Assembly (NCBI GenBank): GCA_963677925.2
Contig: CAXXYH010000004.1
Span: 160,001-224,000 of the forward strand
Reading direction: 5' to 3'
Source of the DNA: Spirochaetia bacterium
Lineage (GTDB): Bacteria; Spirochaetota; Spirochaetia; UBA9216
DNA: 64,000 nt
The notes beneath the pieces are model-generated. The model saw only the letters and a list, made by a program, of their open reading frames with translations. It made no database searches and was not told the DNA's origin. Shown here in pieces: positions 17,558 to 38,607 of this stretch (position 1 is its first letter; each line of letters starts with the position of its first letter). Both the position numbers and the translations under genes were made by a program.

Positions 17558-19213
17558 TCAAAGCCTGGCCTCAAAAAGTGTTTCAACTTCTCCCTCGCAA
17601 AGTGCTGAATCAAAATAACTGAAATCATCAATGGCACCCTTGAAGTATGAGCTGTCGTAGTACCCTGTTCCGCCGAATATACAGGTGTCCGCACTGTAAA
17701 AGTATGAAGCATATGATTCATCTTCTTCAGCAAGTTCTCCGTCAAGATACAATTGCACCGATGATTCAGACTTTACCAGGCTGACCATATGCCAGAGGCC
17801 GTCGGAGAGTTCAGTATTTCCGCCTGCAGTTCGTGTCAGCTCGGGGCTTATACTGTCTGCATACAATTGAAGATCCAGCCCGGAATAAGAGTCATACCTG
17901 ACTGAAATTACAGCATCAGAATAGGCATCACAGCACTCAAAAACCAGGTAGTCTGTCTCACCTTCATAAGGCTTTATCCAGAAAACATATAAAAACTCAG
18001 GACTGTCCATCACACCAAGGGAATCATAAATTTCGAATGAGGCATATTCCCATAAGAACCAGAGCGCCGAATCAGTATAAGAGAACCGGTCATAAGTAAA
18101 ATCCATATTGTAATAATATTCTGTAAAATATCCGTAATCGGGGGTAAAATTGCCGTCAAAATCATATTGGAAAACAGTTTCTTCCATTATATCATCATAT
18201 AAATACATGATGTCACGCGCGGATATTACAATTCCGGAGGCTTCACTGAACTCCATAATGATGCTTTCATTATCGTCTGCATAGAAAATCAGATCGGAAA
18301 CTTCAGCATAGTCATCCCGCACCGTAAGGATATTTTGCGTATTTACGGACAATCTATAAGTTCGGGAAGCCCCTGCTTCAATATCAGAATAACCGATTTT
18401 AACCTCATCCATCTGCTGCTCTATAGGCTCACCATTCAGGTAGATTCTTACTATATACTCTTCAAGATTGTTAAATGTGAGAGATATTGATTTGACATTA
18501 GGGTCTCCGACAGCAGGTATTTCATGGCTTTTTCCTGCTTCATCTATGGTAAAGATAAATTCTTCAGACTTTTCAGCTGTAAGAACGGTTGTTCCGGCTA
18601 CACTTCCATTGCTGTAATATTTCCACAGAATATTAATTCTTCCGAAATCAACTTCAGTTGATACTCCCCGGTATTTATCATATGGGGAGAGAATGGCAAC
18701 CGGGGCAAAGGTTTCATCTCCATTAAGGTAACCTACAGCGTAATCCCAGTCTTTGGAGCCGGATTCAGGAGGATAAAAAATTATCTCTCCTGAATCTTCA
18801 GCAGTCGAAGACCCCGGAACCCACTCCCGTATTACTCCTGAACTATATAGTTTGGTAATCCAGCTGTAATCCGCATTTTCTACGTAAATGTCATCTTCAG
18901 AATCCACAGAAAATGCAGGAAGCAGCCAGAGGTTTTTCAACCCATCCGACTCCATTTTGATTTTTATCAGCAGATCACTCCCGGCTTTTACCGTTCCAAG
19001 GGCATCACCATTAACACAGAGGATATAATCTTCGCTTAGCTCCTCAGCATTAATCCTGAGGTTTCCATCATAACAGGATGAAAGAAATGGATATAGATAT
19101 GATGAAGTATCAGTTCCAGGCCCTGTTTCAGACATATCCATAAAAAAGCTGCATCCTGTTAGAAATGCTGTAACCAAAACTATATAAAGGATCTTCGGTT
19201 CTGCTGAGTTCAT
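17558..19213 (-). CDS. Lipoprotein with novel N-terminal beta domains and a C-terminal LamG/ConA-like domain
   Basis: GGAGG RBS before ATG 19213; lipobox FLTGC; C-terminal FWIKP...DGLWHMVSLV..LYLDGE...FKGAIDDF..FDSAL...EV..LF. Confidence 0.75.
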   Translation of the reverse strand: MNSAEPKILYIVLVTAFLTGCSFFMDMSETGPGTDTSSYLYPFLSSCYDGNLRINAEELSEDYILCVNGDALGTVKAGSDLLIKIKMESDGLKNLWLLPAFSVDSEDDIYVENADYSWITKLYSSGVIREWVPGSSTAEDSGEIIFYPPESGSKDWDYAVGYLNGDETFAPVAILSPYDKYRGVSTEVDFGRINILWKYYSNGSVAGTTVLTAEKSEEFIFTIDEAGKSHEIPAVGDPNVKSISLTFNNLEEYIVRIYLNGEPIEQQMDEVKIGYSDIEAGASRTYRLSVNTQNILTVRDDYAEVSDLIFYADDNESIIMEFSEASGIVISARDIMYLYDDIMEETVFQYDFDGNFTPDYGYFTEYYYNMDFTYDRFSYTDSALWFLWEYASFEIYDSLGVMDSPEFLYVFWIKPYEGETDYLVFECCDAYSDAVISVRYDSYSGLDLQLYADSISPELTRTAGGNTELSDGLWHMVSLVKSESSVQLYLDGELAEEDESYASYFYSADTCIFGGTGYYDSSYFKGAIDDFSYFDSALCEGEVETLFEARL

Positions 19214-19250
19214 ACTGCCTCCTGCCGTCCTGATATAAATAACTGCCGGT

Positions 19251-20225
19251 TTATAGTTCTGCAAGTCCGCCGGTTTCTGAAAAGATAAAGCTGAAAACAT
19301 CGCCGTCTTCGGCTGTAAAAGTGAAACTTGCCAGCTCCCCGGAATCTCCGGTGACTACAATGGTATTGCCGGCTTGAATTTCAAGCCCTTCAAAGGTCCT
19401 GCTTTCATAAGCATCCAGATATGAGTAACCCGCTTTAGAATCAGCCATGGAATCCTCTATCAGAGAACCGTTAAGATATATACTGATAATATAATTTTCA
19501 CTGTTGCTGATGCTCAGGCTCATCTCTGATTCGCTTTCCGATTCAAGGAGGGGCAGCTCAACAGTTTTAGACAGGTCGTCTTCAGTCAGGATAAACTCCT
19601 CGGTAATTTCAGAAATAAGTGCGGACTCCGAACTGTTTTCGGGATTGCTCTGATAAAATTTCCACGTAATCGAGGTTCTTCCGAACTCCAGATATGCCTC
19701 TACTCCTGATTTATCAGCAGGGCTTAGAACCGCTACAGGCAGATATGTATCATCATCATTTATATAACCGATAACATAATCCCATTCCTGAGATCCCATT
19801 GCATTGGGAATAAAGGTTACAAGCGAAGTATCGCTGCTGTTGTCTCCTCCGGGATTCCAGGATCTGACTTCCGAATCAACATAAAGCTTGGCAACCCAGC
19901 AGTACTGACAGTTTTCAATAATCAGATCAGCCTCGGAGGCAACAAGACTCACCGGAACAAGCCACAGGTTTTTAAGTGAATCTTCAAGAATCTCAATGCC
20001 GATTCGTACAATGATACCTGAGGGAACAACCCCTACCGCTTCACCGTCTGCACAAAGGACAAAGTCTTCTGACAAAGACAATGTTGAAATTTCAAGATTG
20101 CCATCCCGCTGATCTGCATCAAGAACTGCCAGCCCATCAATGTACGTCGGCTCTGTAAACAATTCACATCCGGAAAAGATTGCTGTACTAATCAAAACCA
20201 GTACCAAACTAAATAATTTATTCAT
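19251..20225 (-). CDS. Lipoprotein, paralog of the N-terminal part of 17558-19213
   Basis: GGAGG RBS, lipobox FSGC; shares DGNL.I...LSED..LC..G.A.G.V, LKNLWL.P, WDY..GY.N.D.T..PVA.LSP.DK and IYLNG..IE..M...K.GYS with its neighbour. Confidence 0.75.
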   Translation of the reverse strand: MNKLFSLVLVLISTAIFSGCELFTEPTYIDGLAVLDADQRDGNLEISTLSLSEDFVLCADGEAVGVVPSGIIVRIGIEILEDSLKNLWLVPVSLVASEADLIIENCQYCWVAKLYVDSEVRSWNPGGDNSSDTSLVTFIPNAMGSQEWDYVIGYINDDDTYLPVAVLSPADKSGVEAYLEFGRTSITWKFYQSNPENSSESALISEITEEFILTEDDLSKTVELPLLESESESEMSLSISNSENYIISIYLNGSLIEDSMADSKAGYSYLDAYESRTFEGLEIQAGNTIVVTGDSGELASFTFTAEDGDVFSFIFSETGGLAEL

Positions 20226-20257
20226 TTTTGAGTCCTCCAAACTAACTTATGAGATAT

Positions 20258-20284
20258 TTAGTGGAGAAAGAGTGGAAAAACTTT
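20258..20284 (-). promoter_or_regulatory. Putative alternative-sigma promoter AAAG-N16-CCACTAA (copy 1)
   Basis: Minus strand AAAG-tttttccactctttct-CCACTAA, 32 nt before ATG 20225. Confidence 0.7.
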
Positions 20285-20337
20285 CTGAATTTTGTGAATT
20301 TTTAAAAAATAAAAACTTTTCCTGACTGATTTTTTAA

Positions 20338-20366
20338 TTGACAGCCTTAATATTCATGCCTATCAT
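20338..20366 (+). promoter_or_regulatory. sigma70 promoter of the vWA lipoprotein operon
   Basis: TTGACA (20338-20343), 17 nt, TATCAT (20361-20366). Confidence 0.7.
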
Positions 20367-20418
20367 CTTAACTGGTTTGCTCAAACCGTATATTTTACAT
20401 GCACCCGGAGGTCCTGCT

Positions 20419-21516
20419 TTGAAAAAGCATATGATTTTAATGACTACAGGTATACTTGCCGCACTGACAATTTTTTCCTGCAGCTTTATCGGCGGGCAGT
20501 CCGGAGTAACCGGATTGTATCTCGGCATAGTAGCATTTAATAACGGAACCACTCCTATGAGTATAGGCCCCCTCAATTCCAATACAGATACATCATATAA
20601 AAGCTTTATTAACGCTCTTGAAATGGATGATTCAACTACAATGTACCATGCGATCAATGAAGCCATAGATATGCTTCAGGCTGCCTCGCTTCCTGATGAC
20701 GTAACAAGTGTAAACCTGATAACAGTTACAGACGGAGTTGATCAGGGCTCGTACGATTTAAATGCTGCTTATGACAATAATTCCGAGTACCTGGCAGCAA
20801 TCCAGGATCGTTTTGCCGATGAAACCGTTAACGGAATTAAAATAGATGCATATTCATGCGGTGTTGAAGGAAACTATCCGGGAACACCGGAATCCTTCGA
20901 ATCTTCACTTGAAAGTATTACAGCCAATAACGGTTATGACTTGTCAGGCTCTCTGGATACTATCATTTACCAGTTTCAGGCCCTCGTCGAACAGCTTTCA
21001 ACATCATCAAGCGCACAGAACATGTCGATTACCCTTCCAGCAGTGAACCCCAGTGATGTTGTTTGTTTCACATTTGACAGTTTATCACCTGTCACTTCAG
21101 CTCTGTATATACAAGGCACATTCAACAATTCCGCAGGAGTTTCCTCACTGACAGGCGTTACATATGGAGGAATGAGTTCAGGCAGCGGAACATCAATAAC
21201 AGGAACAAACGGCGACGGGGTTGAGAAAATCTTCAACTTTGAAAATATTGCACTTGATTCAGGAGACATGCTTGAAACAACCAATATCCAGCTTTGGCTT
21301 CGCGAATACAACGATGCTGACGGAACCTGGGGAGACTGGGTACAGCGCGGAGAATTCGATTCTGATAATGCAACACTGACGACTGTAACAAGCTCAAGCG
21401 CAGTGTTTGTATTTGTTCTGGATGCCAGCAGCTCCCTTGGAACAGATTTCAGCAGAATTCAGACCATGGCAAACGATACGATTGATACCATGATTGAAAG
21501 CTACAACTACGAATAA
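20419..21516 (+). CDS. Lipoprotein with a circularly permuted vWA domain
   Basis: GGAGG RBS then TTG; lipobox IFSC; LGIVAFN, TTMYHAI, LITVTDG in the N-half; FVLDASSSL (DxSxS) at the extreme C-terminus. Confidence 0.75.
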   Translation: MKKHMILMTTGILAALTIFSCSFIGGQSGVTGLYLGIVAFNNGTTPMSIGPLNSNTDTSYKSFINALEMDDSTTMYHAINEAIDMLQAASLPDDVTSVNLITVTDGVDQGSYDLNAAYDNNSEYLAAIQDRFADETVNGIKIDAYSCGVEGNYPGTPESFESSLESITANNGYDLSGSLDTIIYQFQALVEQLSTSSSAQNMSITLPAVNPSDVVCFTFDSLSPVTSALYIQGTFNNSAGVSSLTGVTYGGMSSGSGTSITGTNGDGVEKIFNFENIALDSGDMLETTNIQLWLREYNDADGTWGDWVQRGEFDSDNATLTTVTSSSAVFVFVLDASSSLGTDFSRIQTMANDTIDTMIESYNYE

Positions 21517-21531
21517 ATAAGGAATACAATT

Positions 21532-22155
21532 ATGCTTCGAAAACTTTCTCTGATTTTGTGTATTTTTTTTCTGACACAGTCCCTGTTTGCGCTGAACTTC
21601 ATTCGGGCGGCCTACCGTGAAACATACCGGAACTATGATTTCAACAGCAGTGAATCTGAATATGAAACTGAATCAACAAAAATCGGTGAACTTGGACTGA
21701 ATTATACCTATGTTGAAGATAATGGTATGTATTTAAGTACATCTATACTGCTTCCGGGAATTTATACACAGAAGATTGATGATACAGACACTGGTCTCAC
21801 AATATACGATGTAAGGGATTATAACGGACTAAGTATTGGTATCGACACCCTGTTCGGCTTTGGCGGCATTATGTATGACGATATTTTAACCTCAGCAGGC
21901 TTCGGTGCCCATTTGAACGGTACATCTATTAAAACATGGAACGATGAATACATCCATAGATATAACCTTGGATTCGGATTTGCAGCAGATATGATTTTTC
22001 TAATAAGTGATGCATTTAATCTGAATATAGGAGGCATGGTTGCCTGGGATTTAATAAGAATTGCTGAAGATCCTGTTATTACCGAAGATGCTGGCGCTTC
22101 AATTGGAACCGTATCCTGGAGTATTTATGCCGGTACAGGCTGGGGATATTATTAA
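21532..22155 (+). CDS. Probable small outer-membrane beta-barrel protein
   Basis: Signal peptide (SLFA); Gly/aromatic-rich amphipathic strands; ends ...IYAGTGWGYY. Confidence 0.6.
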   Translation: MLRKLSLILCIFFLTQSLFALNFIRAAYRETYRNYDFNSSESEYETESTKIGELGLNYTYVEDNGMYLSTSILLPGIYTQKIDDTDTGLTIYDVRDYNGLSIGIDTLFGFGGIMYDDILTSAGFGAHLNGTSIKTWNDEYIHRYNLGFGFAADMIFLISDAFNLNIGGMVAWDLIRIAEDPVITEDAGASIGTVSWSIYAGTGWGYY

Positions 22156-22171: not shown

Positions 22172-22198
22172 AAAGATTTCATCTGCTTCTCCCACTAA
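22172..22198 (+). promoter_or_regulatory. Putative alternative-sigma promoter AAAG-N16-CCACTAA (copy 2)
   Basis: AAAG-atttcatctgcttctc-CCACTAA, 33 nt before ATG 22232. Confidence 0.7.
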
Positions 22199-22231: not shown

Positions 22232-22927
22232 ATGAAAAAAATCATTTCAATACTGTTCCTGCTTTTAGCCGGAACCGCCCTTTTTGCTGATACAGTCAGC
22301 TGGTACACAAGCTACGACAAGGCGCTTGCCGCCGCAAAAAAAGAAAACAAAAATATATTTCTTCTTATTACCGCCCCCAGCTGGTGCGGATGGTGTGTCA
22401 AACTGGAAGAAAATGTACTGAGTAAATCAGACGTTCAGCAAGCCATAAGCAAAGACTACATCCCCTTAAAACTGCTCGATGAGATAAACGGGGTCCGTAA
22501 TCCGGAACTCTCCAATTTCAACTTCAGCGGATATCCTACGGTACGTATCTACAGCAAGGACGGGAATTTTGTACAGGATATATATTCCCAGGATAAAAAC
22601 AAAATGCTTGCATCATTGGACAGCTATAAAAATCCGGCAATCAGCAGCAATCAGGCCAAACCGGAAAAATTCATTGCCTACCCGAATTCAAACGGTGATA
22701 AGTGGGAATTTGAAAGCAGCGGCGACGGCTTCTGGTCTTTGACAGTCGGAGAAGATGAGGAAGTTCTGATGGAGTTTGAATCAGATAATGATTTTATCTA
22801 TCTTATGGACGGCAGCGGCATGTATGCCATAGCACTGCCGCTGAAAGGGAGCGACGGCGGTCTTGGAAGAGTTGGTGATGATGGTGTCGACTGGACAGTA
22901 TTGGCAGGATTTGAAAAAGTTGAATAA
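22232..22927 (+). CDS. Exported thioredoxin-family protein with an extra C-terminal beta domain
   Basis: Signal peptide; W.TSYDKAL..AK.ENK.IFL.ITAPSWCGWC; cis-Pro GYPT. Confidence 0.85.
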   Translation: MKKIISILFLLLAGTALFADTVSWYTSYDKALAAAKKENKNIFLLITAPSWCGWCVKLEENVLSKSDVQQAISKDYIPLKLLDEINGVRNPELSNFNFSGYPTVRIYSKDGNFVQDIYSQDKNKMLASLDSYKNPAISSNQAKPEKFIAYPNSNGDKWEFESSGDGFWSLTVGEDEEVLMEFESDNDFIYLMDGSGMYAIALPLKGSDGGLGRVGDDGVDWTVLAGFEKVE

Positions 22928-22952
22928 TTAAAGTCTATTAAAAATATCACTG

Positions 22953-22980
22953 AAGCAGGGCTTTTTTGTCCTGCTTTTTT
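22953..22980 (+). terminator. Rho-independent terminator
   Basis: AAGCAGGGC-TTTTTT-GTCCTGCTT followed by a T-run. Confidence 0.7.
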
Positions 22981-23059: not shown

Positions 23060-24547
23060 TTGAAAGTTAAAAGAAGGATTTTGAAACCATACAGGTCCAA
23101 TATCGATATCACCCCCCTTATGATCGAAATTACAGTTTCGGTACTGGCCGGCTTTTTCCTCCTTTTCTGGGGGATGATTTTTTTCAGCAACACATTTTAT
23201 CAGCAGTCAAAGCTCACAAAACTTCGCAATACATTTATTGGAAATGCAGGCGATGAAGAAATATACAGGGATGTCACAATCTTATCACCTGACATTGATG
23301 ATACAATAATCAATAATGGTGAAAATGATTCATCCTATCTTCTGAAGTTTATCACTGATGCAGTTTCAGTATGTGCTGAATTCGCCCGAAACGGTTCACC
23401 TGACTCAATAATTGTTCTGGGTATTGATTATGCCATCGCCGGGGCTGATTTTTCAGACGAAGAACTCCGTCCGCTGGCAGATCTTATAGGCTCGCTCCCT
23501 CCGAACTTTCGTGTAGTTTTCGGAACCTTTCTTCTGGATTCACCGGGCGGTCCCGTTTCAGGAACCCAGCATCTGTTCAGCCGTATAGCCGGTCTTTCAA
23601 AAACGCCTGTTAGAACAGTTCCACATAGTACCCAGATTTACTTCGGATCAATTGAAACTCTGAATGCGACTGTTACAGCCGGCTTCGAAGGAGGCGGGGG
23701 ATATTCAATTGCAGCAGGATACCAGCCGCTGATACCAGTCAATTCAACCACTGTGGCAGCGGGAGCCTCTGTTAAAAGCGTATCGGCCTACCTTTCCTTT
23801 CCTTTGGCTATGTTTGCTGCTGGAGAGATAAATCCGCTTCAGTTCGGAGGGAATCCTTCAGAGTTCATACTTTCCGATTACGGTTCGGCCGCAGGCGCAG
23901 CACGGCGTCAAAGCGTTACTCTTTTTATATCTGAAGACGGAGCAGACTCTATCACAGTAATAGAAGAGAGAACTGGATATTCACGTGAGGAATTATCCGG
24001 TCCGGTATATTATGACATCAGAACTTCCAATGATACTGATGCAGTCCCCGGCCGTTTTTACTGGCTGTCGGATTTCCGGGCGCTTGTAAATAATGCCAAA
24101 CCCGGCGATAGCCAGGGAGTTAAGTACATTTTTGCAATCCCACCGCTTCTCCCGGCTTATTTTTCAGAAGCCGACAACGATCTGACCCTTACATCAGCCA
24201 GCGGAATCAATCGTTTTACCGGCGAATACACTCAGGTGCGTGGTGTCGTCAAACACATAACTGCTCTCTCAAATCTAAGAAACGCCCGGCGCCTGGTACA
24301 GAAACCGGGATGGTCTGTAATACTATCTGTTATTTTCGGAGCTGCGGTAATAGTTTTGTCTGCGGTTGCCCCTTCCTTTTTCCACAGCCTGCTGTGGACT
24401 TCAGGATTAATGGCAGCCTTTGTGCTAATTATTTTCACTGCATTTACTTTCGGGAATCTGATTTCCTGGAATTTAGGGCTTGGATTAATTCTGGGCGGCT
24501 TTATTATCATGAGCTTTATTCGACTGCTGGCAGCAGACCGGCAGTGA
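23060..24547 (+). CDS. CHASE2-like membrane protein lacking a cytoplasmic output domain
   Basis: N-terminal TM, large extracytoplasmic region with 'IVLGIDY' and 'RGVVKHITALSNL' (cf. CHASE2 IGLDI / GVEIHA), then three terminal TMs and a stop. Confidence 0.55.
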   Translation: MKVKRRILKPYRSNIDITPLMIEITVSVLAGFFLLFWGMIFFSNTFYQQSKLTKLRNTFIGNAGDEEIYRDVTILSPDIDDTIINNGENDSSYLLKFITDAVSVCAEFARNGSPDSIIVLGIDYAIAGADFSDEELRPLADLIGSLPPNFRVVFGTFLLDSPGGPVSGTQHLFSRIAGLSKTPVRTVPHSTQIYFGSIETLNATVTAGFEGGGGYSIAAGYQPLIPVNSTTVAAGASVKSVSAYLSFPLAMFAAGEINPLQFGGNPSEFILSDYGSAAGAARRQSVTLFISEDGADSITVIEERTGYSREELSGPVYYDIRTSNDTDAVPGRFYWLSDFRALVNNAKPGDSQGVKYIFAIPPLLPAYFSEADNDLTLTSASGINRFTGEYTQVRGVVKHITALSNLRNARRLVQKPGWSVILSVIFGAAVIVLSAVAPSFFHSLLWTSGLMAAFVLIIFTAFTFGNLISWNLGLGLILGGFIIMSFIRLLAADRQ

Positions 24548-30598: not shown

Positions 30599-30606
30599 GA
30601 ATTAAT

Positions 30607-33600: not shown

Positions 33601-34248
33601 GAGAGTAAACCAGCCCAAGGCCTCAGAGGGTCTTCCTACAGCAAAGGATGACAATGATGCAAATATAAAAGCACCGGGAACAGAGGATCCAAGCTTCAGG
33701 TACTCTTCGGCAAGTTTGAGACAACCCTCATAGTTGCCGTCATAATATTCATACATACAGAGGTCCCAGAAAACATTCGGTTTTTCCGGGTCATCTAAAC
33801 GTTTTAAGCCTTCCAGAAGAACGTCCTTCGCCTCTGCTCTTTTTCCTGTTCTATCAAGAACCGAAGCGTATCTGGTAAAAACCCATGAAGAGGGATTTTG
33901 ATGATAATTGCAGTTGCTGATATAGCCCGGCAGCGCCTGTGCCATAGCCCCGGACTGATAGTATCTTTCAGCCAGCATCCAGGAAATGTTTAAATATGAT
34001 GTTTGAAACTCTGTTAATGTTTCAGGTTTACCGTCAGGAAAGACTTCCTCATCAGAAAAATTAAGGTCATCAAACATTTCCGCGATTTCCTGAAAGGTTT
34101 TCGTGTCAGCATTATCAGAAACAGACAGCAGCTTACAGGCAGTCTCTGCCCATATTATAAATGTCTGCTGAAAATCAGGTGAAAATTCTGCAAAGACAAA
34201 GGAGCAGTTTAAAATAATCAATAAAGCGGATACTAATAACTTTTTCAT
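30607..34248 (-). CDS. Exported TPR + CHAT (caspase-like) protease
   Basis: Signal peptide MKKLLVSALLIILNCSFVFA; seven ~43-aa TPR repeats (Y..SLNNLA.LY...GRY.EAEPL); HITTHG and LSACETG dyad; YYWGAFILVE end. Confidence 0.93.
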   Translation of the reverse strand: MKKLLVSALLIILNCSFVFAEFSPDFQQTFIIWAETACKLLSVSDNADTKTFQEIAEMFDDLNFSDEEVFPDGKPETLTEFQTSYLNISWMLAERYYQSGAMAQALPGYISNCNYHQNPSSWVFTRYASVLDRTGKRAEAKDVLLEGLKRLDDPEKPNVFWDLCMYEYYDGNYEGCLKLAEEYLKLGSSVPGAFIFASLSSFAVGRPSEALGWFTLCLAETFNNSEYQWFFERLRGLYTEFQTEYGEKAGLSYVFTMLDLFDNQDSTADTEFETNFVSAVELSTWKPEMLKSGVDLFKKADFRKIEDALLYEEAGRTESFDWEYAIYRFIDLKDSGRFLTALRWGESAAEIALKDYGEKNVCYTTSLIHIALVYEDMGRYAESEPLYRKVLEITAGSDSAGLKRDYSTALHNLASLYFEMGQYGKAEPLFMEALKIRIELEPKGYSSYYASTLNGLALLYQKTGRFAEAELNCIKALEIRKTFEPSEMHSDYALSLNNLATLYYETGRYAEAEPLLKKAVGIQKEQVPAGRSSQYALALNNLAFLYYETGFDDDARILYEQSLEISAELEPKLRHPVFISAVANLAGISMNLGEYEESEQLYKIVQSACRKLEPVGRHPDYADILNNTAVLYERMKRYSEAASLYRQSISIVLDNLDLQYMSMSEKERAQYQSTVSLLLLNLKKFTEDAYSTVPATASFLFDTQIRTKGALLRSSQQMRSRIMESNDSGLISDYKRWLGLKEQYAQYLGGNAGALAGLTEEELKSEINFLEKDLSRESSVFARESDKIEYSWQDIRNVLNPDEAAVEILRYPYGDDVHYAALVITSDSKEQPLFQLMKDGSYIENEAYSAYREWVAAMESGEYSFELFNLKENYGGQELSELHELLYEAFWESVESILPEGVKTVFLSPDGVYNLLNLQTLKTPEGDYLSDRYAFRIVTNSREIVEQYDKTASLNSAEPVLVGYPDYYLSTSSSAPAGSASMLPDGLLSEINTRSGGSLEPLAGSAEEMNGILEILEEKNIEYFELHADEATENAVKSIKNPEILHITTHGFFLTDTQIKNKKATGINTGVNRYLENPLLRSGLYLAGAGWSLQSPENTSSMDDGILTAYEVMNLDLYGTKLVTLSACETGLGKVVNGEGVYGLQRAFLSAGADAVLMSLWKVDDSATKELMVSFYRHLYSGEETRTAYNMAISELREKYEDAYYWGAFILVE

Positions 34249-34285
34249 TTTAATTTCTGTTCCACAGTTGTTCTTCATATGCATA

Positions 34286-34312
34286 TTAGTGGAAAAATCC
34301 TACCATTTATTT
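34286..34312 (-). promoter_or_regulatory. Putative alternative-sigma promoter AAAT-N16-CCACTAA (copy 3)
   Basis: Minus strand AAAT-aaatggtaggattttt-CCACTAA, 37 nt before ATG 34248. Confidence 0.65.
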
Positions 34313-34359
34313 GTAAAAATAACCTGTATTTTCAGGAAAATTATTATACAGTAATTGTT

Positions 34360-35436
34360 ATGCCGGTTGATAATATCCGAATACCACAGGAGCTATACCA
34401 CTTCAACAGAATACAATCGCTCTTTGATCCCGAAGTAATCAACCTTATCCTCAGAACCACGGCCTCTAACTATGAGAGGGAGCTTAAAAAGGATACAAAA
34501 GCCCTTTTCTGCAAGGCGGATTCTACTGAATATAGAGACAGGCTTAATGCTCTGATGAAGATCGTGCAGGAATATCATAATGTAGACGGGAAAATTATTC
34601 TCTATATAGATAAATCAAATACAAGCACAGCCAAAACCTACCCTACAACAAAAGAACAGACAGACAATTATGTGGTTATTTCAGAATCGCTTCTTGATAA
34701 ACTTACAGATGATGAACTGCTTTTTATCATGGGTCATGAAATCAGCCATATCAGCTTTCATCATGCGGTAATCAACTGGATCATCGGAACTATCTACCCG
34801 GAAGGCCAGAAAATGCCGCCGATTATAAGGAATGAATGGAATATATGGACCCGTCTGGCCGAAATATCAGCGGATAACGCCGGACTGCAGCTTTGCAGAG
34901 ACAGGGCTTCCGCCCAATCAGCACTAATAAAGACAATTCCGGCAGACAACAGCGAACTGAAAAACAGAATTGCCTGTCTTGGAAACGGCGAAAGATTTGA
35001 ACTTTATTATAAAGAGATAATCAGCAGGATATCTGAGGATTATTCAGAACTATATGCCAACTTCTTTGAAAAAGCTTTTCTGCTGATCAGCGAACTCGAC
35101 GGCCATGTCTGCAGTGATGAAGAGGAGTTTATTCTTAATCGTCTTTCCTTTCATAAATATCTTACAGATAACCCAGTCCGCAACAAAAAAACAGTCAGTC
35201 ACAGACAATTACTGAAAGAAGGCAAAAGGATAGCTGAGCAGTTTCCTGATAAAACTGAAGAATTATTTCTAAACCTTTCCGCATTAACTCTGAAGGACAA
35301 TACACTGACACAGGAAGAATACAGGCTCCTTTACGAGATAGGTACAAAGGCTTTCGGATTCACGCCCGAAACTGTCGATTCACTTTTTCTTTCAATAATC
35401 CGTTCAACTATTTTCCAGCCTCATAAAGAGTTGTAA
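34360..35436 (+). CDS. M48-family zinc metallopeptidase fused to a C-terminal TerB-like domain
   Basis: LLDKLTDDELLFIMGHEISH (HExxH), AEISADNAG; C-terminal DGHVCSDEEEFI and DNTLTQEEYRLL TerB-like motifs; start uncertain (34279 or 34360). Confidence 0.8.
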   Translation: MPVDNIRIPQELYHFNRIQSLFDPEVINLILRTTASNYERELKKDTKALFCKADSTEYRDRLNALMKIVQEYHNVDGKIILYIDKSNTSTAKTYPTTKEQTDNYVVISESLLDKLTDDELLFIMGHEISHISFHHAVINWIIGTIYPEGQKMPPIIRNEWNIWTRLAEISADNAGLQLCRDRASAQSALIKTIPADNSELKNRIACLGNGERFELYYKEIISRISEDYSELYANFFEKAFLLISELDGHVCSDEEEFILNRLSFHKYLTDNPVRNKKTVSHRQLLKEGKRIAEQFPDKTEELFLNLSALTLKDNTLTQEEYRLLYEIGTKAFGFTPETVDSLFLSIIRSTIFQPHKEL

Positions 35437-35459: not shown

Positions 35460-35465
35460 ACCCCT

Positions 35466-36242
35466 ATGACTAAAGATGAGTTTGTAGCTGACTATGGTGA
35501 GTATCTGTACCGGGCTGCATATAAATGTTACTGGAAGCTGAAGGGCAAACCTAAAACCGAAGAAGAAATAGAAATTATCCATGATGTATTTACCAATATT
35601 TTAGAGACATTCTCCACTAAGATTGATGAAGGCAACTTTAATTTCAGGGGAGAATGTGATATCAGGACTTTTTTCTTCAGTTCAGTATACAGAAAAATGC
35701 GTGAAACTCTGTATGGAAAAGTTTTCTATCCGGCAGCCCTGAAACCCTTCGGGGAAGCAGGGAGAAGCATCTATTATCACAGATATATACTTTCTTATCC
35801 CAGAACAGAAGCCCTCATGCTGAGCTGTCAGGAGCTGGGAGCTGAATGGGATGACATTGACAGCATGGATAAACAGATAGAGGCAAATCTTAAAACCTCC
35901 ATTGTAAAAAAGAAAGGCCCTGTATCTAATACCGAAGTAGGTGAAAATCAGCTTGAAGAATTCGTTGCACAAACTCTTTTTGCACATTCAAGAACACCGG
36001 AAGCAGAAGTCTTAATGAGTGAATTACGCACAAAAATGAGCTGCATTCTTGAAAACCTGAGCCTTCAGCACAGGCAGATAATAATTCTGGATCAGGACGG
36101 TTTCAACACTGAAGATATTCAGAAAACCTTAAAGCTTAAAGACAGGCAGGCAGTTTATAACACGCTTTTCTCGGCAAAAAAAGCTTTCCGAAAAGAAGCT
36201 GAAAACCAGAAGCTTGAGGAATGGACAGATCACATCTGTTAA
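35466..36242 (+). CDS. ECF-like sigma70 factor with an insertion between regions 2 and 4
   Basis: Region 2: F...YGEYLY...DVFTNIL...FRGECDIRTFF.S.V; region 4: TPEAEVL...LENLSLQHRQII.L...GF..EDI..TL....QAVYN.L..AKK. Confidence 0.8.
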   Translation: MTKDEFVADYGEYLYRAAYKCYWKLKGKPKTEEEIEIIHDVFTNILETFSTKIDEGNFNFRGECDIRTFFFSSVYRKMRETLYGKVFYPAALKPFGEAGRSIYYHRYILSYPRTEALMLSCQELGAEWDDIDSMDKQIEANLKTSIVKKKGPVSNTEVGENQLEEFVAQTLFAHSRTPEAEVLMSELRTKMSCILENLSLQHRQIIILDQDGFNTEDIQKTLKLKDRQAVYNTLFSAKKAFRKEAENQKLEEWTDHIC

Positions 36243-36252
36243 GGATTGAATT

Positions 36253-36558
36253 ATGAATGATGATTTATTTTTAAATAAACTTAATAAAATATTTTCCAGG
36301 GAAGAGCTTGCGGATTTAATGAAAGAGGACATGGACATTCCTGTTCCCGATAAGGTTCGGGACTTAATTAATCAGGCGAAACGGAATGTGGCAAATCAAA
36401 AAAAGAATTCCGGCAAGATTATAGACATAGTAAACAAGGATGACCCAATTGATTTGAAAGCCTGCGCAATAGAAGGCCAGGATGAAGCTCCGAAGGACGA
36501 GGATCCAATAAAGAAGCTGCTGAATAAAACAAGTAAAGGGTCTGAAAAAGGGGAATAA
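36253..36558 (+). CDS. Small soluble protein directly downstream of the sigma factor (candidate anti-sigma or partner)
   Basis: 101 aa, AAGGA RBS, charged, no TM; role inferred from position only. Confidence 0.55.
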   Translation: MNDDLFLNKLNKIFSREELADLMKEDMDIPVPDKVRDLINQAKRNVANQKKNSGKIIDIVNKDDPIDLKACAIEGQDEAPKDEDPIKKLLNKTSKGSEKGE

Positions 36559-36560
36559 AA

Positions 36561-37034
36561 CTGAAGAAAAATATTTTTATATTGCTATTTTTTATATCGG
36601 GCTTTTCATTACACGCTCAAAGCCTTGAGGAAAGCCTGAACACAATGAGTCGTTTAGTAGCAAAATACGACCTACACGACTCAGCTCAACTATATTTTGA
36701 TGGATTACATTTAGTCTATAATACCCTGGGGTACCAACGAATAGACGGGAAACGCTGGGGCGTTACAGTTGTATGTAAAGCCTATTTGCCGGATTTATAT
36801 ACGGAATATTATGATATTGAAGAATATGGCAGACCTGTAGTGTACTGCACAACTGTGAATGGAAAATCAATAAACGTCACCAAAGAGGAGGAAAAGGAAA
36901 TCGGCAGGGATACTGTAAAAAAGGAATTTGTCTCTGAATTCATTAGATTTCAATTTACGACAATCAAATCAGCAGTAGAATTTCAGGAGACTTTAATTCA
37001 TGTATTAGAAATTCTAAGAGAAGAATTTCAATAA
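36561..37034 (+). CDS. Exported hypothetical protein
   Basis: A signal peptide (L)KKNIFILLFFISGFSLHA-Q is complete only from CTG 36561 after AAGGGG; the ORF track start is 36582. Confidence 0.6.
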   Translation: MKKNIFILLFFISGFSLHAQSLEESLNTMSRLVAKYDLHDSAQLYFDGLHLVYNTLGYQRIDGKRWGVTVVCKAYLPDLYTEYYDIEEYGRPVVYCTTVNGKSINVTKEEEKEIGRDTVKKEFVSEFIRFQFTTIKSAVEFQETLIHVLEILREEFQ

Positions 37035-37675
37035 AACTCTTCCAGCGGCTTATCCCTGAACAGAATATACTGAAGAAGATACATATACGGATCAAGAACC
37101 AGACCGAATTGGATAAAATATTCTGCGGTTTTCATTGTCCAGTTTTCAGTATAGCTGATTTTTAAAACGCCATGCAGATCTGCAGTAGAAAGTTCTTCAC
37201 CATACCAGAATCTCTCTTTACAGTTACTTAAAATTAGACTGAAGACATTATAATCAGGAATGAAAAACTCTCTTGGAAGACTGTTCAAGTTTCTGCCTCT
37301 TTTAATTTGTACTTCATCACCAATCGAGTATGAGATATTCACCGGATATGACACAATACATCCCCAGCTTCCGTTGAACTCAACAGAAGTTATTTCCAGT
37401 TCAGGATCAATTTCGCCTATCTTGACCATTTTAAAAACATTCTCAATATTATCAAAATGTGTGAATCCATATTCAATATAGGAATACTCATGATATAAAT
37501 CGTCAGCCTGATCGGGATATTGTTCGCAGAGATCCCTTAACCTGAGGTATGAAATAAACCAGTTTCTTTCTAAAAATAAGGACCGTTTTAGTTCTATCTC
37601 ATATTCCTCAAGTGCCTGTGCATATAAGTTAATAGACAAAATAATAAAAATTGATAATAACCAGTATTTTTTCAT
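37028..37675 (-). CDS. Exported hypothetical protein
   Basis: AGGGG RBS; signal peptide MKKYWLLSIFIILSINLYA-Q. Confidence 0.7.
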   Translation of the reverse strand: MKKYWLLSIFIILSINLYAQALEEYEIELKRSLFLERNWFISYLRLRDLCEQYPDQADDLYHEYSYIEYGFTHFDNIENVFKMVKIGEIDPELEITSVEFNGSWGCIVSYPVNISYSIGDEVQIKRGRNLNSLPREFFIPDYNVFSLILSNCKERFWYGEELSTADLHGVLKISYTENWTMKTAEYFIQFGLVLDPYMYLLQYILFRDKPLEEFY

Positions 37676-37706
37676 ATTACGCCCCTATTCCATTTGCATG
37701 TCATTA

Positions 37707-37733
37707 TTAGTGGTATTATCGTGTGATTTCTTT
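37707..37733 (-). promoter_or_regulatory. Putative alternative-sigma promoter AAAG-N16-CCACTAA (copy 4)
   Basis: Minus strand AAAG-aaatcacacgataata-CCACTAA, 31 nt before ATG 37675. Confidence 0.7.
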
Positions 37734-37782
37734 GAGATAAGTATACATTTTGTGATATTATCAGAGATAACAAGGTATTTAA

Positions 37783-38607
37783 ATGTTCCGAAAAATTAAA
37801 CTTATTGTACTGCTTTTTTTTATACCCTTTATCACATTTCCGGCAGGTGTGGATTATCCATATGAAATAAATATCGAAGGAAAACTGCAGCACTGGACAT
37901 GGGCTAATACACAGAACAAACTGGCCCTGGTTATTCAAAATGCAGATCAACAGGTACTTCGTATTATAGAGGCAGAAACAATGCATCTGAGTGCAGCTGT
38001 ACAGATTCCTGAGCATTTATCTATACGAAACATGGAATGGGCTGCAGATGATTCAGGAATAATCTTTCTTTCCGACCGCTCTATTGAAAATATTGAAGGC
38101 TTAACTTTCTTCGACTTTAAAACCATATCATTTAAAAATAATTATGATTTCAATTACATAGAATTCAGTTCTACTGAACAACGCTGGTCTCTCTACTACG
38201 ACCCGCAGAGCCGATGCTGGGCAACCCTTTCAACCGGAGAAGGTCATCCGGATATTACAGTAAGCCGTAACGGTACAGAAATCATGAAAACAAATATCTA
38301 CCCCGGGTATATATCGATTATCGGATGGCAATCCGGCAGACTCTTTCTTGAAACCTCACTTCCTTTAAAATTAATAACAGCACGAAATGATATTTATTAT
38401 CTGGAAAACGAACTAAGGGATTCTAACGAAGACATTTCAAATCTGGGAGATTTCATTTACTCATTTGATTTTGGAGCGGGAATTCTAAATAGAGTAGATT
38501 ACGTATTTTTACCTGATTTCAGAAATACATCTAAAATTGAAAGCCAGTTTTACTTTCAGTATGAATTCATTGAATCCGAATATAAGACAATTATTCGGAT
38601 GTGGTAA
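37783..38607 (+). CDS. Exported hypothetical protein, possibly beta-propeller-like
   Basis: N-terminal hydrophobic leader; 'WAADDSGIIFLS' resembles a TolB/PD40 blade. Confidence 0.55.
   Translation: MFRKIKLIVLLFFIPFITFPAGVDYPYEINIEGKLQHWTWANTQNKLALVIQNADQQVLRIIEAETMHLSAAVQIPEHLSIRNMEWAADDSGIIFLSDRSIENIEGLTFFDFKTISFKNNYDFNYIEFSSTEQRWSLYYDPQSRCWATLSTGEGHPDITVSRNGTEIMKTNIYPGYISIIGWQSGRLFLETSLPLKLITARNDIYYLENELRDSNEDISNLGDFIYSFDFGAGILNRVDYVFLPDFRNTSKIESQFYFQYEFIESEYKTIIRMW

What the first reader, a model, noticed from the sequence alone, without database searches (positions are those of the whole stretch)
17558..38607. Candidate undescribed system: exported caspase-like TPR-CHAT proteases with their own ECF-like sigma factor, CHASE2-like sensor and M48-TerB protein
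Seen: a ~21 kb block between metabolic genes with two intact CHAT proteases carrying signal peptides, an output-less CHASE2-like membrane protein, an M48-TerB fusion, an ECF-like sigma factor, a small partner ORF and about nine other exported proteins or lipoproteins (LamG, vWA, thioredoxin, barrel). A shared upstream motif ties four of the genes together. Established: TPR-CHAT proteases act in proteolytic signalling and defence, e.g. type III-E CRISPR Csx29 cleaves Csx30, which binds an RpoE-like sigma factor, and HetF acts in heterocyst development. Inference: a CRISPR-independent, envelope-located proteolytic signalling circuit that turns on a surface-protein regulon, perhaps for stress, conflict or cell-cell sensing. 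The route from exported protease to cytoplasmic sigma factor is not evident from the sequence.
Basis: partly seen in the sequence, partly recalled or inferred. Interest (0 to 1): 0.9.

Follow-up and report, generated by a model that had tools for sequence, protein, structure and literature searches.

The report
Exported CHAT protease signalling island
A 21-kb island in a spirochaete genome joins two secreted caspase-like proteases, a membrane sensor and a private sigma factor; it is probably an envelope-to-gene signalling circuit built from recurring gene pairs, related in idea to a known bacterial defence switch but wired differently.

Summary
Window 17558-38607 is a real 21-kb block. A sister species has the same flanks at 86-90% DNA identity but lacks about 17626-38692.

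The block holds the genome's only two CHAT genes, which are paralogs with the His and Cys kept and N-terminal signal-like segments. It also holds an output-less membrane protein of a divergent CHASE2-related family, an M48 peptidase of an M48-TerB family, a divergent sigma-70-family factor, and 11 of 15 proteins with N-terminal hydrophobic segments. The word TTAGTGG is 19-fold enriched in the block.

The 15-gene block was found as a unit in no other genome searched. It looks assembled from recurring pairs:
- Exported CHAT next to a CHASE2 receptor: 7 of 31 CHAT loci examined.
- This sigma family next to M48-TerB: both genomes that clearly carry the sigma, each near a caspase-fold protease.
- Ordinary ECF sigma with a putative anti-sigma next to an exported caspase-fold protease: two further loci.

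The closest published case is Myxococcus DdvA/DdvS, where a periplasmic TPR-CHAT is fused to an anti-sigma. That fusion is absent here, so the link from periplasm to sigma stays inferred.

Verdict: a new variant of a known kind. Interest 0.6.

The parts
17558..19300 (-). Lipoprotein-like protein, 580 aa, with a C-terminal LamG (Laminin_G_3) domain. Its N-terminal 330 aa are paralogous to the next gene.
   Evidence: Pfam 51.6 bits. 39% identity to p329 over 332 aa. Hydrophobic N-terminus ending in L-T-G-C. The 3' end survives as two remnants in sister genome G001.
19251..20240 (-). Lipoprotein-like protein, 329 aa, paralog of the LamG protein's N-terminal part.
   Evidence: No family hit.
20258..20264 (+). 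TTAGTGG motif copy in the divergent intergenic region, about 160 nt before the likely start (about 20421) of the vWA-like gene.
20338..21516 (+). Lipoprotein-like protein with a weak vWA-like match; the true start is probably near 20421.
   Evidence: VWA E=7e-4, below cut-off. N-terminal segment.
21532..22155 (+). Exported 207-aa protein, possibly a small outer-membrane barrel (aromatic C-terminus, judged by eye).
   Evidence: No family hit.
22232..22927 (+). Exported thioredoxin-like protein (Thioredoxin_7 / DsbH-like). The hairpin terminator at 22952-22977 ends this operon.
   Evidence: Pfam 54.5 bits. Terminator-like site with 10 pairs.
23060..24547 (+). Output-less membrane protein of a divergent CHASE2-related family: 1 TM, a periplasmic domain of about 370 aa, then 3 TM.
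   Evidence: Topology. 21 HMMER relatives including itself. CHASE2 model hit in relatives only. No match of its own.
24595..25536 (+). Exported 313-aa protein of unknown fold, a conserved downstream partner of the CHASE2-like family.
   Evidence: 19-23% identical to the genes that follow the CHASE2-like gene in G167 and G304. Fold model failed.
25526..30598 (+). Exported WD40-TPR-CHAT protease, 1690 aa. Its start overlaps the end of the previous gene by 11 nt, so the two share an operon.
30607..34284 (-). Exported TPR-CHAT protease (1225-aa ORF; likely start at the M-K-K-L-L codons near 34248), paralog of the former and convergent with it.
34286..34313 (+). Bipartite motif TTAGTGG-N12-ATTTATTTG, 74 nt before the M48-TerB start. 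One of only two such sites in the genome.
34360..35436 (+). Cytoplasmic M48 zinc peptidase (HExxH plus a downstream Glu kept) with a C-terminal domain that is TerB in its relatives.
   Evidence: No TM-like segment.
35466..36242 (+). Divergent sigma-70-family factor, 258 aa.
36253..36558 (+). Charged 101-aa cytoplasmic protein, 10 nt after the sigma gene. Possible sigma partner, no relatives found.
36582..37034 (+). 150-aa protein. A signal-like segment continues upstream of the first canonical start codon.
37028..37675 (-). Exported 215-aa protein, no family.
37707..37734 (+). Second bipartite motif, TTAGTGG-N12-ATTTCTTTG, 76 nt before the next gene.
37783..38607 (+). Exported 274-aa protein, no family, followed by a hairpin at 38603-38631.

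Best explanation
The block is a strain-variable island of a spirochaete. I read it as an envelope-to-transcription signalling circuit built from three linked modules.

Module 1, periplasmic and membrane. It is an operon encoding a CHASE2-related membrane protein without an output domain, an exported 313-aa partner and an exported WD40-TPR-CHAT protease. A second, paralogous exported TPR-CHAT protease is encoded convergently. I propose that the CHAT proteases work in the periplasm with the CHASE2-type receptor as a sense-and-cleave pair.

Module 2, cytoplasmic. It is transcribed divergently from the second CHAT gene and encodes an M48-TerB metallopeptidase, a divergent sigma-70-family factor and a 101-aa protein. 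I propose that M48-TerB controls the availability of the sigma factor. The sigma would then drive the promoters marked by TTAGTGG, including its own operon.

Module 3, cargo. It comprises exported proteins and lipoproteins.

Shown: the gene content, the operon structure, the indel against the sister species, the recurrence of the CHAT/CHASE2 pair and of the sigma/M48-TerB pair, and the motif enrichment.

Inferred: export of the CHATs, protease activity, which protein is cleaved, any contact between module 1 and module 2, and that the motif is a promoter for this sigma.
For: Island status. Sister genome G001 matches the flanks at 86-90% identity up to window 17625 and again from 38693. Between them it has only two remnants of the LamG gene's 3' end plus about 206 unmatched bases.

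Operon structure. The p313 stop overlaps the WD40-CHAT start by 11 nt. The gaps M48 to sigma, sigma to p101 and p101 to p150 are 29, 10 and about 3-23 nt. A strong terminator follows the thioredoxin gene.

CHAT with CHASE2.
- Among 31 CHAT ORFs in fetched loci, 7 have a CHASE2-adenylate-cyclase gene at most 676 nt away. Four overlap by 4 nt, two have gaps of 46-48 nt, and one is convergent. They come from 7 genomes of 4 families.
- The four other genomes that carry a full-length member of the mem495 family all carry CHAT genes (4 of 4). In the class sample without G000 the rate is 32 of 400.
- A Deinococcus plasmid has an annotated stand-alone CHASE2 protein divergent from a TPR-CHAT gene. This was 1 of 5 plasmid contexts viewed.

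Sigma with M48-TerB. The sigma profile finds 3 of 401 class genomes: G000, G223 and a weak partial hit in G324. In G223 the sigma gene is divergently adjacent to an M48-TerB homolog (E=6e-31). A 721-aa Peptidase_C14 caspase protein lies 2.4 kb away.

Sigma with exported caspase-fold proteases elsewhere.
- G167:C81 has an ECF sigma and a 690-aa membrane protein divergent from a signal-bearing TPR-CHAT.
- G223:C68 has an ECF sigma, a 313-aa membrane protein and a 760-aa C14 protein with a hydrophobic N-terminal segment.

Motif. 5 of the genome's 63 TTAGTGG sites lie in the island. The bipartite form occurs only at 34286 and 37707, which are 74 and 76 nt before start codons.

Precedent. DdvA of M. 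xanthus has a periplasmic TPR-CHAT joined to a cytoplasmic anti-sigma domain that holds the ECF sigma DdvS (passages of PMC11506125).
Against: - No other genome searched has the whole combination.
- The mem495-family loci in G082, G167, G304 and G058 show no CHAT on the same contigs of 8-42 kb.
- 14 and then 14 more CHAT loci share nothing with the island except CHAT and, in some, CHASE2.
- G018's CHAT sits beside chemotaxis genes and LrgAB.
- Of 80 loci with M48-TerB relatives, 1 has CHAT within 10 kb and none has the sigma family within 5 kb.
- G384's M48-TerB-like gene has neither neighbour on its 7.4-kb contig.
- No membrane-spanning anti-sigma is evident. Both CHATs lack the cytoplasmic anti-sigma domain of DdvA, and M48-TerB, the sigma and p101 have no TM-like segment.
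- In G223 the caspase next to the sigma/M48-TerB pair has four N-terminal TM-like segments (by eye), so it may face the cytoplasm.
- One motif copy (22192) points the wrong way and one (35614) is inside the sigma gene. The CHASE2-like/CHAT operon has no copy in front of it. The motif is absent from the G223 locus.
- Sigma-70-like hexamers also precede several island genes.
- The sigma/M48-TerB association rests on two genomes.
Confidence: 0.4

Rival explanations
1. Mosaic of independent modules. The region is a variable spot where separate units have accumulated: a CHAT/CHASE2-type periplasmic unit, a sigma/M48-TerB regulatory unit, and unrelated surface proteins. They do not signal to each other. 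The sigma controls a few neighbouring genes only, and the CHAT/CHASE2 pair has a different output.
For: Each pair recurs elsewhere without the other. CHAT/CHASE2-cyclase loci have no sigma258 or M48-TerB relatives. The G223 sigma/M48-TerB locus has no CHAT or CHASE2-like gene on its 27-kb contig. The mem495-family operons lack CHAT on their contigs. No motif copy lies in front of the CHASE2-like/CHAT operon. Elsewhere the CHASE2 partner usually carries its own cyclase output.
Against: In both genomes that clearly carry the sigma/M48-TerB pair, it lies within a few kb of a caspase-fold protease gene. G223 has two C14 matches and one CHAT match, and G000 has two CHAT matches and three C14 matches. 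The second CHAT gene and the sigma operon share one intergenic region of about 110 nt that carries the motif. Here the CHASE2-like protein has lost any output of its own, so it needs a partner to signal. The whole block is present or absent as one piece between sister species.
Confidence: 0.3
2. Conflict or anti-phage surveillance island. Periplasmic CHAT proteases sense an invader-derived or damage-derived protein and switch on a sigma regulon, or kill the cell, as proposed for DdvA/DdvS and for the cytoplasmic craspase and SAVED-CHAT/PCaspase systems.
For: Published protease-sigma defence modules: Csx29/Csx30/CASP-sigma, SAVED-CHAT/PCaspase/PCc-sigma and CalpL/T/S (passages of 10.1101/2023.06.23.546230), and DdvA/DdvS. 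The G223 counterpart lies among an AAA ATPase, a radical-SAM-like protein, a ClpB-like AAA_2 protein and a vWA protein. Distribution is sporadic: CHAT in 0 of 10 genomes of the own family and 33 of 401 of the class. The island is present or absent between sister species.
Against: PADLOC gives no defence-model hit for 9 of 10 island proteins, and only a weak repeat match (HEAT-ARM_XIII, E=7e-6) on the WD40 region of the tenth. The repeat finder over 17000-39200 listed no spacer-repeat array. The Pfam scans of the island ORFs named no nuclease, cyclase or other known effector family. No mobile-element genes were seen and the only tRNA in the window is at 1544. The cargo looks like surface and periplasmic proteins (LamG, vWA-like, thioredoxin-like).
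Confidence: 0.2
3. Surface remodelling or nutrition. The CHATs are secreted degradative or maturation proteases for the island's own lipoproteins and adhesin-like proteins. The sigma factor merely switches the set on, with no proteolytic signalling.
For: 11 of 15 proteins have N-terminal hydrophobic segments. LamG, vWA-like and thioredoxin-like domains suit surface proteins. The neighbouring genes are for carbohydrate use. About 19-21 of 31 CHAT ORFs in the class start with a signal-like segment (by eye), so exported CHATs are common there.
Against: It does not explain the repeated pairing of CHAT with a CHASE2 receptor-cyclase, nor that of caspase-fold proteases with sigma and putative anti-sigma genes. 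TPR and WD40 scaffolds point to specific partners rather than bulk degradation (inference).
Confidence: 0.1

Closest known systems
[quoted passage not shown]
   Same: A TPR-CHAT module with a His-Cys dyad lies outside the cytoplasmic membrane and is genetically tied to a sigma-70-family factor. The proposed logic runs from a periplasmic signal, through proteolysis, to a free sigma and then a regulon.
   Different: In DdvA the TPR-CHAT is fused through one TM helix to a zinc-binding anti-sigma domain of about 70 residues. Here both CHATs have only 8-12 residues before the hydrophobic segment, so they are separate exported proteins. The sigma is not a canonical ECF and is paired with a cytoplasmic M48-TerB peptidase. 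A CHASE2-type membrane protein is part of the operon. No CBASS or CRISPR cargo is present.
Type III-E craspase (Cas7-11 with the TPR-CHAT Csx29, plus Csx30, Csx31 and CASP-sigma/RpoE) and the Haliangium SAVED-CHAT/PCaspase/PCc-sigma cascade (search listing; passages of 10.1101/2023.06.23.546230)
   Same: Caspase-fold proteases are encoded beside a dedicated sigma factor and small partner proteins. In the Haliangium case two proteases of the fold sit in one locus.
   Different: Those systems are cytoplasmic and are triggered by RNA-guided or cyclic-oligonucleotide sensing. Here no Cas, SAVED or cyclase genes are present, PADLOC gives no hit, and the proteases carry export signals.
CHASE2 receptor-adenylate cyclases, and the C14 metacaspase fused to CHASE2 in Trichodesmium (PMC2853523, passages read)
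   Same: The membrane topology is the same: 1 TM, a periplasmic domain, then 3 TM. A link between a caspase-fold protease and CHASE2 is already known in one published fusion.
   Different: The island protein fails the CHASE2 model itself and has no output domain. The link here is an operon with CHAT, not a fusion with C14. Three literature searches found no paper describing a CHAT/CHASE2 gene pair.
HtpX/LoiP-type M48 peptidases, and TerB-domain proteins
   Same: HExxH plus a downstream Glu, with weak matches to HtpX models. Relatives carry the TerB domain.
   Different: It is soluble, with no TM segments. It is fused to TerB and paired with a sigma factor. Most relatives (80 loci, mainly gut Bacteroidales and Myxococcota) have neither a sigma258 relative within 5 kb (0 of 80) nor, with one exception, a CHAT neighbour.

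Membership tests
CHAT (PF12770), caspase-fold cysteine protease | Match to the family model above its cut-off | tested here: met
   185 and 188 bits against a cut-off of 24. Both are also found by the whole-genome search.
CHAT (PF12770), caspase-fold cysteine protease | Catalytic His and Cys retained | tested here: met
   Both paralogs keep H in T-H-G-F-F and C in S-A-C-E-T-G. Assigning these as the dyad is by analogy with DdvA H862/C907 and recall of the family.
CHAT (PF12770), caspase-fold cysteine protease | Proteolytic activity | not testable with these tools
   Needs an enzyme assay.
CHASE2 (PF05226) extracellular sensor domain | Match of the protein itself to the family model | tested here: not met
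   No hit at E<=10. The whole-genome scan finds true CHASE2 genes at three other places but not here.
CHASE2 (PF05226) extracellular sensor domain | Homology through intermediate sequences | tested here: inconclusive
   Of 10 relatives scanned, P0015 scores 26.8 bits (cut-off 26.3), P0016 E=3e-4 and P0013 E=6e-3; 7 give nothing.
CHASE2 (PF05226) extracellular sensor domain | Topology of TM, periplasmic domain, then three TM | tested here: met
   TM-like segments at 17-46, 415-446, 440-470 and 467-493.
DdvA-type anti-sigma with periplasmic TPR-CHAT | N-terminal cytoplasmic anti-sigma (zinc-binding) domain fused by one TM helix to the TPR-CHAT | tested here: not met
   Only 8 and 12 residues precede the hydrophobic segment in the two proteins.
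DdvA-type anti-sigma with periplasmic TPR-CHAT | Cognate sigma gene adjacent | tested here: inconclusive
   A sigma gene lies one gene away in the divergent operon. It is not a canonical ECF.
ECF (group 4) sigma factor, TIGR02937 | Score at or above the model cut-off | tested here: not met
   26 bits against 42.9. No Pfam sigma region found.
Sigma-70 family (any group) | Sigma fold | tested here: met
   Model pLDDT 77.1. All 50 listed Foldseek hits are sigma factors, the best being 8x6g_H SigB at E=8e-4. TM-scores are low (0.21-0.29), as expected for a multi-domain protein.
Type III-E craspase module | Cas7-11/CRISPR neighbourhood and cytoplasmic Csx29 | tested here: not met
   The Pfam scans of the island ORFs named no Cas-type family. 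No repeat array in 17000-39200. No PADLOC hit. The proteases carry export signals. cas genes were not searched by their own models.
M48 zinc peptidase | Family match with HExxH and the third ligand Glu | tested here: met
   52 bits against a cut-off of 20.3. H126, E127, H130 and E168 are invariant in 6 sequences.
TerB (PF05099) | Match to the family model | tested here: inconclusive
   The island protein gives no hit at E<=1. 4 of 6 aligned family members do, the best at 2.3e-6.

The most novel reading that the evidence does not exclude
The island is one integrated, undescribed signalling system. Exported TPR/WD40-CHAT proteases cleave or gate an output-less CHASE2-type membrane receptor (or its exported 313-aa partner). 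The change is passed across the membrane to a TerB-tethered M48 peptidase, which removes an inhibitor (p101 or a part of the sigma itself). A new sigma-70 subfamily is thereby released and turns on TTAGTGG promoters and a surface-protein regulon. This would be an unfused, two-protease version of regulated proteolysis, distinct from both DdvA/DdvS and RseP-type pathways. It would also give a first function to the widespread CHAT/CHASE2 gene pair.
Probability: 0.2. Interest if true: 0.85.

Novelty: new variant of a known kind. Interest (0 to 1): 0.6.

Why it matters
Exported TPR-CHAT proteins appear common in this spirochaete class: about 19-21 of 31 ORFs seen start with a signal-like segment by eye. 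Yet only one periplasmic CHAT, DdvA, has been studied.

This locus and its relatives point to two recurring gene pairs. For the first, CHAT with a CHASE2 receptor, I found no description in three literature searches. For the second, a new sigma subfamily with an M48-TerB peptidase next to caspase-fold proteases, I ran no literature search. If the pairs work as proposed, they extend caspase-like proteolytic signalling in bacteria from the cytoplasm and CRISPR-linked defence to the cell envelope. They would also give testable partners for CHASE2, a sensor domain whose ligands are, to my recollection, largely unknown (no call checked this).

Tried and rejected
Ideas tested and dropped
- FecR idea: by eye p313 looked FecR-like. 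hhalign of its alignment against the 690-aa putative anti-sigma of G167 gave probability 0.3%. I dropped the idea.
- p313 fold: the AlphaFold model had pLDDT 44 and was not searched further.
- Protein atlas: for p313 it gave only unnamed clusters at 0.91; for p101 it gave nothing usable.
- Complex prediction of M48-TerB with the sigma gave no verdict (score 0.00, mark 0.32). This is evidence neither for nor against binding.

Searches that found little or nothing
- Two metagenome scans, with the sigma alignment and with the CHAT paralog alignment, found no relatives. The peptide patterns used were narrow.
- The word-based homolog search for mem495 found only itself. The protein search in 40 relatives found none.
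- The order-level sigma search found 1 of 11 genomes, G000 itself.
- tblastn of mem495 against plasmids found no match.
- The Deinococcus CHASE2 and its 276-aa neighbour do not match my mem495 or p313 profiles.
- Sequencing runs: no RNA holder is listed, and only one DNA run holds the stretch.
- The repeat finder gave no convincing long shared upstream repeat. The motif was found by reading the intergenic DNA.
- PDB sequence searches with the sigma gave only chance-level hits.

Limits
- A mobile-element origin is not supported: the island ORF scans showed no integrase or transposase and there is no flanking tRNA. GC content is unremarkable.
- No supplementary file of any paper was opened. Table S7 of PMC11506125, the list of DdvA-like proteins, may bear on how far that family reaches.

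Full report
WHAT IS THERE

The window is G000:C4:160001-224000 of a 5.04-Mb genome in four contigs. The organism is a spirochaete: the FlaA family gives four matches in this genome and none in 14 control genomes. That FlaA is the periplasmic-flagellum sheath protein of spirochaetes is my recollection.

ORF listing and family scans give this order:
- On the minus strand, two paralogous lipoprotein-like genes. One is 580 aa with a LamG domain, the other 329 aa. They are 39% identical over 332 aa.
- On the plus strand, a weakly vWA-like lipoprotein, a 207-aa exported protein and an exported thioredoxin-like protein, ended by a strong hairpin at 22952-22977.
- A 495-aa membrane protein (mem495), an exported 313-aa protein (p313) and a 1690-aa WD40-TPR-CHAT protein whose start overlaps the p313 stop by 11 nt.
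- Convergent to it, a 1225-aa TPR-CHAT protein.
- Divergent from that, an M48 peptidase (likely start 34360), a 258-aa sigma-like protein, a 101-aa protein and a 150-aa protein, with gaps of 29, 10 and about 3-23 nt.
- A 215-aa exported protein on the minus strand and a 274-aa exported protein on the plus strand.

The flanks are metabolic, and the only tRNA in the window is at 1544. A hydropathy script finds an N-terminal hydrophobic segment in 11 of 15 island proteins. It finds none in the M48 protein, the sigma or p101, and finds 1+3 TM-like segments in mem495. I ran no signal-peptide predictor, so 'exported' is inference.

IT IS AN ISLAND

The sister species G001 (same genus) matches the left flank at 87-88% and the right flank at 86-90% identity. 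A finer BLAST of the junction shows the following:
- The G001 match ends at window 17625.
- A 53-nt piece then matches 17901-17953. Both pieces lie inside the 3' end of the LamG gene.
- About 206 unmatched bases follow, and the match resumes at 38693.

These remnants argue for loss in G001 rather than a clean insertion in G000, but either is possible. The two CHAT genes are the only ones in G000. CHAT was found in 0 of 10 other genomes of the family and in 33 of 401 genomes of the class sample.

IDENTITY OF THE KEY PROTEINS

CHAT proteins. Their C-terminal halves are 42% identical. Both keep the His and Cys that I take to be the dyad.

mem495.
- It fails the CHASE2 model even at E<=10, although the genome has true CHASE2 genes at three other places.
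- A full HMMER scan of 1.84 billion representatives found 21 proteins including itself.
- In my alignment of 18 of them, 12 of the 17 relatives carry a C-terminal extension of about 230 aa with the look of a degenerate class III cyclase domain. That is my reading of the motifs, supported by the fact below that the profile's C-terminal part hits many cyclase proteins.
- Of 10 relatives scanned against Pfam, one reaches the CHASE2 cut-off (26.8 against 26.3 bits), two are sub-threshold and seven give nothing.
- 'CHASE2-like and output-less' is therefore a fair description, but membership is not proven.

Sigma. It scores 26 bits on TIGR02937 (cut-off 42.9) and has no Pfam hit. A model built on four sequences has pLDDT 77, and all 50 listed Foldseek PDB hits are sigma-70-family factors, with SigB, sigma-28 and sigma-S types ahead of ECFs. 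It is a real but divergent sigma. Its length and helix count fit three domains better than a minimal ECF.

M48 protein. It keeps HExxH and a downstream Glu. TerB is matched by 4 of 6 aligned family members but not by the island protein itself.

THE MOTIF

TTAGTGG occurs 5 times in the window, all inside the island. The dinucleotide-shuffle expectation for the window is 6.1, so the count is not itself an excess. TAG-containing words are rare in this genome, however. The 7-mer occurs only 63 times on both strands in 5.04 Mb, against 109 expected from a fifth-order model. Five of 63 in 0.42% of the genome is a 19-fold enrichment, while TAG, TTAG and TAGTG are not enriched in the island, with ratios of 0.92-1.06. 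By my arithmetic a Poisson mean of 0.26 gives P of about 1e-5 for five or more. The word was picked after reading the region, so this overstates the case.

The extended form TTAGTGG-N12-ATTT[AC]TTTG occurs only twice in the genome. One site is 74 nt before the M48-TerB start and the other is 76 nt before the 274-aa gene.

Against a simple promoter reading:
- The copy at 22192 is on the opposite strand to the genes around it.
- The copy at 35614 is inside the sigma gene.
- There is none before mem495.
- Sigma-70-like hexamers also precede several genes.
- The G223 locus has no such site near its sigma gene.

IS IT A CONSERVED SYSTEM? THE WHOLE BLOCK IS NOT

- mem495 was not found in 40 relatives.
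- The sigma profile finds 3 of 401 class genomes (G000, G223 and a weak partial hit in G324) and 1 of 11 in the order.
- Two metagenome scans found nothing.
- A genome-wide scan with the M48-TerB alignment gave 160 relatives, of which the best 80 loci were kept. These are mostly gut Bacteroidales MAGs and Myxococcota. Only 1 of 80 has a CHAT gene within 10 kb: L030, a Cryptobacteroides MAG, where the TPR-CHAT is followed by an unknown gene and a PrsW protease. None of the 80 has a sigma258-family ORF within 5 kb.
- The CHAT loci of G018, G023 and G027 share only CHAT with the island. So do 28 further CHAT-containing stretches, apart from CHASE2 in some.

THE PAIRS DO RECUR

(a) CHAT with CHASE2.
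- A profile of the mem495 family matches 248 of 401 class genomes at E<=1e-8. Only five matches are full-length: G000, G082, G167, G304 and G058. The rest match its membrane-plus-cyclase part in proteins of about 800 aa.
- In three of those four other genomes (G082, G167, G304) the gene sits in a conserved run of genes of about 280 aa and about 150 aa, then the CHASE2-like gene. In G167 and G304 a gene of about 305 aa follows it; in G082 the gene runs off the contig end. I did not list the ORFs of G058's locus. That last gene aligns with p313 at 19-23% identity.
- No CHAT lies on those contigs, but all four genomes carry 2-5 CHAT genes. The rate in the class sample without G000 is 32 of 400. 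My arithmetic for four of four is about 3e-5. Two of the four belong to one family, so the evidence is less than that figure suggests.
- Searching ORFs of all fetched CHAT loci with the same profile showed that 7 of 31 CHAT ORFs have a gene of about 590 aa at most 676 nt away. These are in G023, G058, G223, G273, G280, G324 and G372, from four families.
- Six of those seven neighbours (G023's was not included in that comparison) match G000's own CHASE2 proteins in both the N-terminal and the cyclase parts and show the CHASE2 sequence motifs by eye. They are ordinary CHASE2-adenylate cyclases.
- Several of the other 24 loci had little DNA on one side, so 7 of 31 is a lower bound.
- Outside the class, I viewed five annotated plasmid contexts of CHAT genes. 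One, from Deinococcus taeanensis, has an annotated 451-aa stand-alone CHASE2 protein divergent from a TPR-CHAT gene. One, from Flammeovirga, has a 7TM-DISM sensor convergent to it. Three have neither.

(b) Sigma with M48-TerB.
- In G223 (another family) the sigma relative (E=3e-17) is divergently adjacent to an M48-TerB relative that is 24% identical over residues 32-381 (E=6e-31).
- 2.4 kb further lies a 721-aa Peptidase_C14 protein with four N-terminal TM-like segments by eye. A ClpB-like AAA_2 protein and a vWA protein follow it. Upstream are an AAA ATPase and a radical-SAM-like protein.
- A class search with the M48-TerB profile gives 68 of 401 genomes at E<=1e-8. Full-length matches occur only in G000, G223 and G384. 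G384 has no sigma or caspase on its 7.4-kb contig.

(c) Ordinary ECF sigmas beside exported caspase-fold proteases.
- I compared Sigma70_r2 matches in five genomes with the positions of CHAT and C14 genes.
- G167:C81 has an ECF sigma and a 690-aa single-TM protein divergent from a signal-bearing 874-aa TPR-CHAT.
- G223:C68 has an ECF sigma, a 313-aa single-TM protein and a 760-aa C14 protein with an N-terminal hydrophobic segment, all in one direction.
- Calling the two TM proteins anti-sigmas rests on position and topology only.

HOW IT COMPARES WITH WHAT IS KNOWN

The closest published system is DdvA/DdvS. From the passages I read:
- DdvA has a cytoplasmic zinc-binding anti-sigma domain, one TM helix and a periplasmic TPR-CHAT of about 900 residues with a His-Cys dyad.
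- The authors propose CHAT autoproteolysis as the site-1 step before RseP.
- They found DdvA-like proteins only in Myxococcota and one Comamonas species.

The island's CHATs lack the anti-sigma part, so they are not members of that family. The logic may still be the same with the parts on separate polypeptides.

Cytoplasmic protease-sigma modules of CRISPR-linked defence are further away. These are Csx29/Csx30/CASP-sigma, SAVED-CHAT/PCaspase/PCc-sigma and CalpL/T/S (search listing; passages). The island has no Cas or cyclic-oligonucleotide genes, and PADLOC gave no defence-model hit for 9 of 10 proteins.

A C14 metacaspase fused to CHASE2 is recorded in Trichodesmium (passages). Three full-text searches pairing CHASE2 with 'CHAT domain', 'caspase' or CHAT returned 0, 10 and 3 papers. 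None, by title or by the passages I read, describes a CHAT/CHASE2 gene pair. The library covers open-access papers and bioRxiv only.

MECHANISM AND ODDS

I commit, at 0.4, to a circuit in which periplasmic CHAT proteases act with the CHASE2-type membrane protein, and the M48-TerB/sigma module is the transcriptional output.
- The strongest parts are the two pairings.
- The weakest is the link between them. It rests on co-location in one indel, a shared intergenic region of about 110 nt, the loss of any output domain in mem495, and the fact that the sigma/M48-TerB pair is seen twice, each time next to a caspase-fold protease.
- The main rival, at 0.3, is that the modules are merely neighbours.
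- A defence role (0.2) and a surface-maturation role (0.1) are not excluded. The first overlaps with the main reading, since DdvA/DdvS is itself a defence switch.

VERDICT

- The finding is a new variant of a known kind, not a categorically new system.
- Its most useful yield is two testable gene pairs and a clear comparator.

Noticed in passing
whole genome G000 (scripts on /data/genome.fa): Words containing TAG are strongly under-represented. CTAG occurs 2,882 times against about 37,400 expected from base composition, and TTAG 14,216 times against about 51,700. Dinucleotide-shuffle expectations for TAG-containing motifs are therefore too high in this genome.
   Followed up: partly
window 30560-30636: A 26-nt inverted repeat (77% complementary) spans the 8-nt gap between the two convergent CHAT genes. 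It arises because both genes end with the same conserved peptide read on opposite strands. It could double as a two-way terminator.
   Followed up: no
window 36546-36584: The 150-aa ORF's signal-like segment continues upstream of its first ATG/GTG/TTG in the same frame, with no stop before it back to at least 36546. This suggests a non-canonical start such as CTG or ATA.
   Followed up: no
G171:C1:5451213-5473609 (L166-L168): Five CHAT genes lie in tandem within 22 kb of one complete spirochaete genome, with a sixth CHAT ORF a few kb further on. Most start with signal-like N-termini.
   Followed up: no
L094/L097 (G223:C44): The G223 sigma/M48-TerB pair lies in a cluster with an AAA ATPase, a radical-SAM-like protein, a membrane-anchored C14 caspase, a ClpB-like AAA_2 protein and a vWA protein. 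It looks like a conflict-system neighbourhood.
   Followed up: partly
L030 12907-17636 (Cryptobacteroides MAG): A signal-bearing TPR-CHAT (889 aa) is followed by a 405-aa unknown protein and a PrsW-family intramembrane protease, 2 kb from an M48-TerB-family gene. PrsW is, from my recollection, a site-1 protease of an anti-sigma in Bacillus.
   Followed up: no
L133 3700-7308 (G082:C60): A 1202-aa protein fuses an N-terminal TerB domain to an ABC transporter (ATPase plus ABC-2 membrane domain), about 1.5 kb from a mem495-family gene.
   Followed up: no
L179 (Nostoc punctiforme plasmid pNPUN01, 84422-91823): Two CHAT genes and a 'caspase family protein' gene are annotated in tandem, with a filamentous-haemagglutinin-type gene about 3.6 kb further on and a lanthipeptide cluster upstream.
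   Followed up: no
G000:C3:822640-824217: One of the genome's CHASE2 matches lies in a 934-aa frame with 4 TGA and 1 TAA inside the match. It is possibly a broken CHASE2 gene.
   Followed up: no
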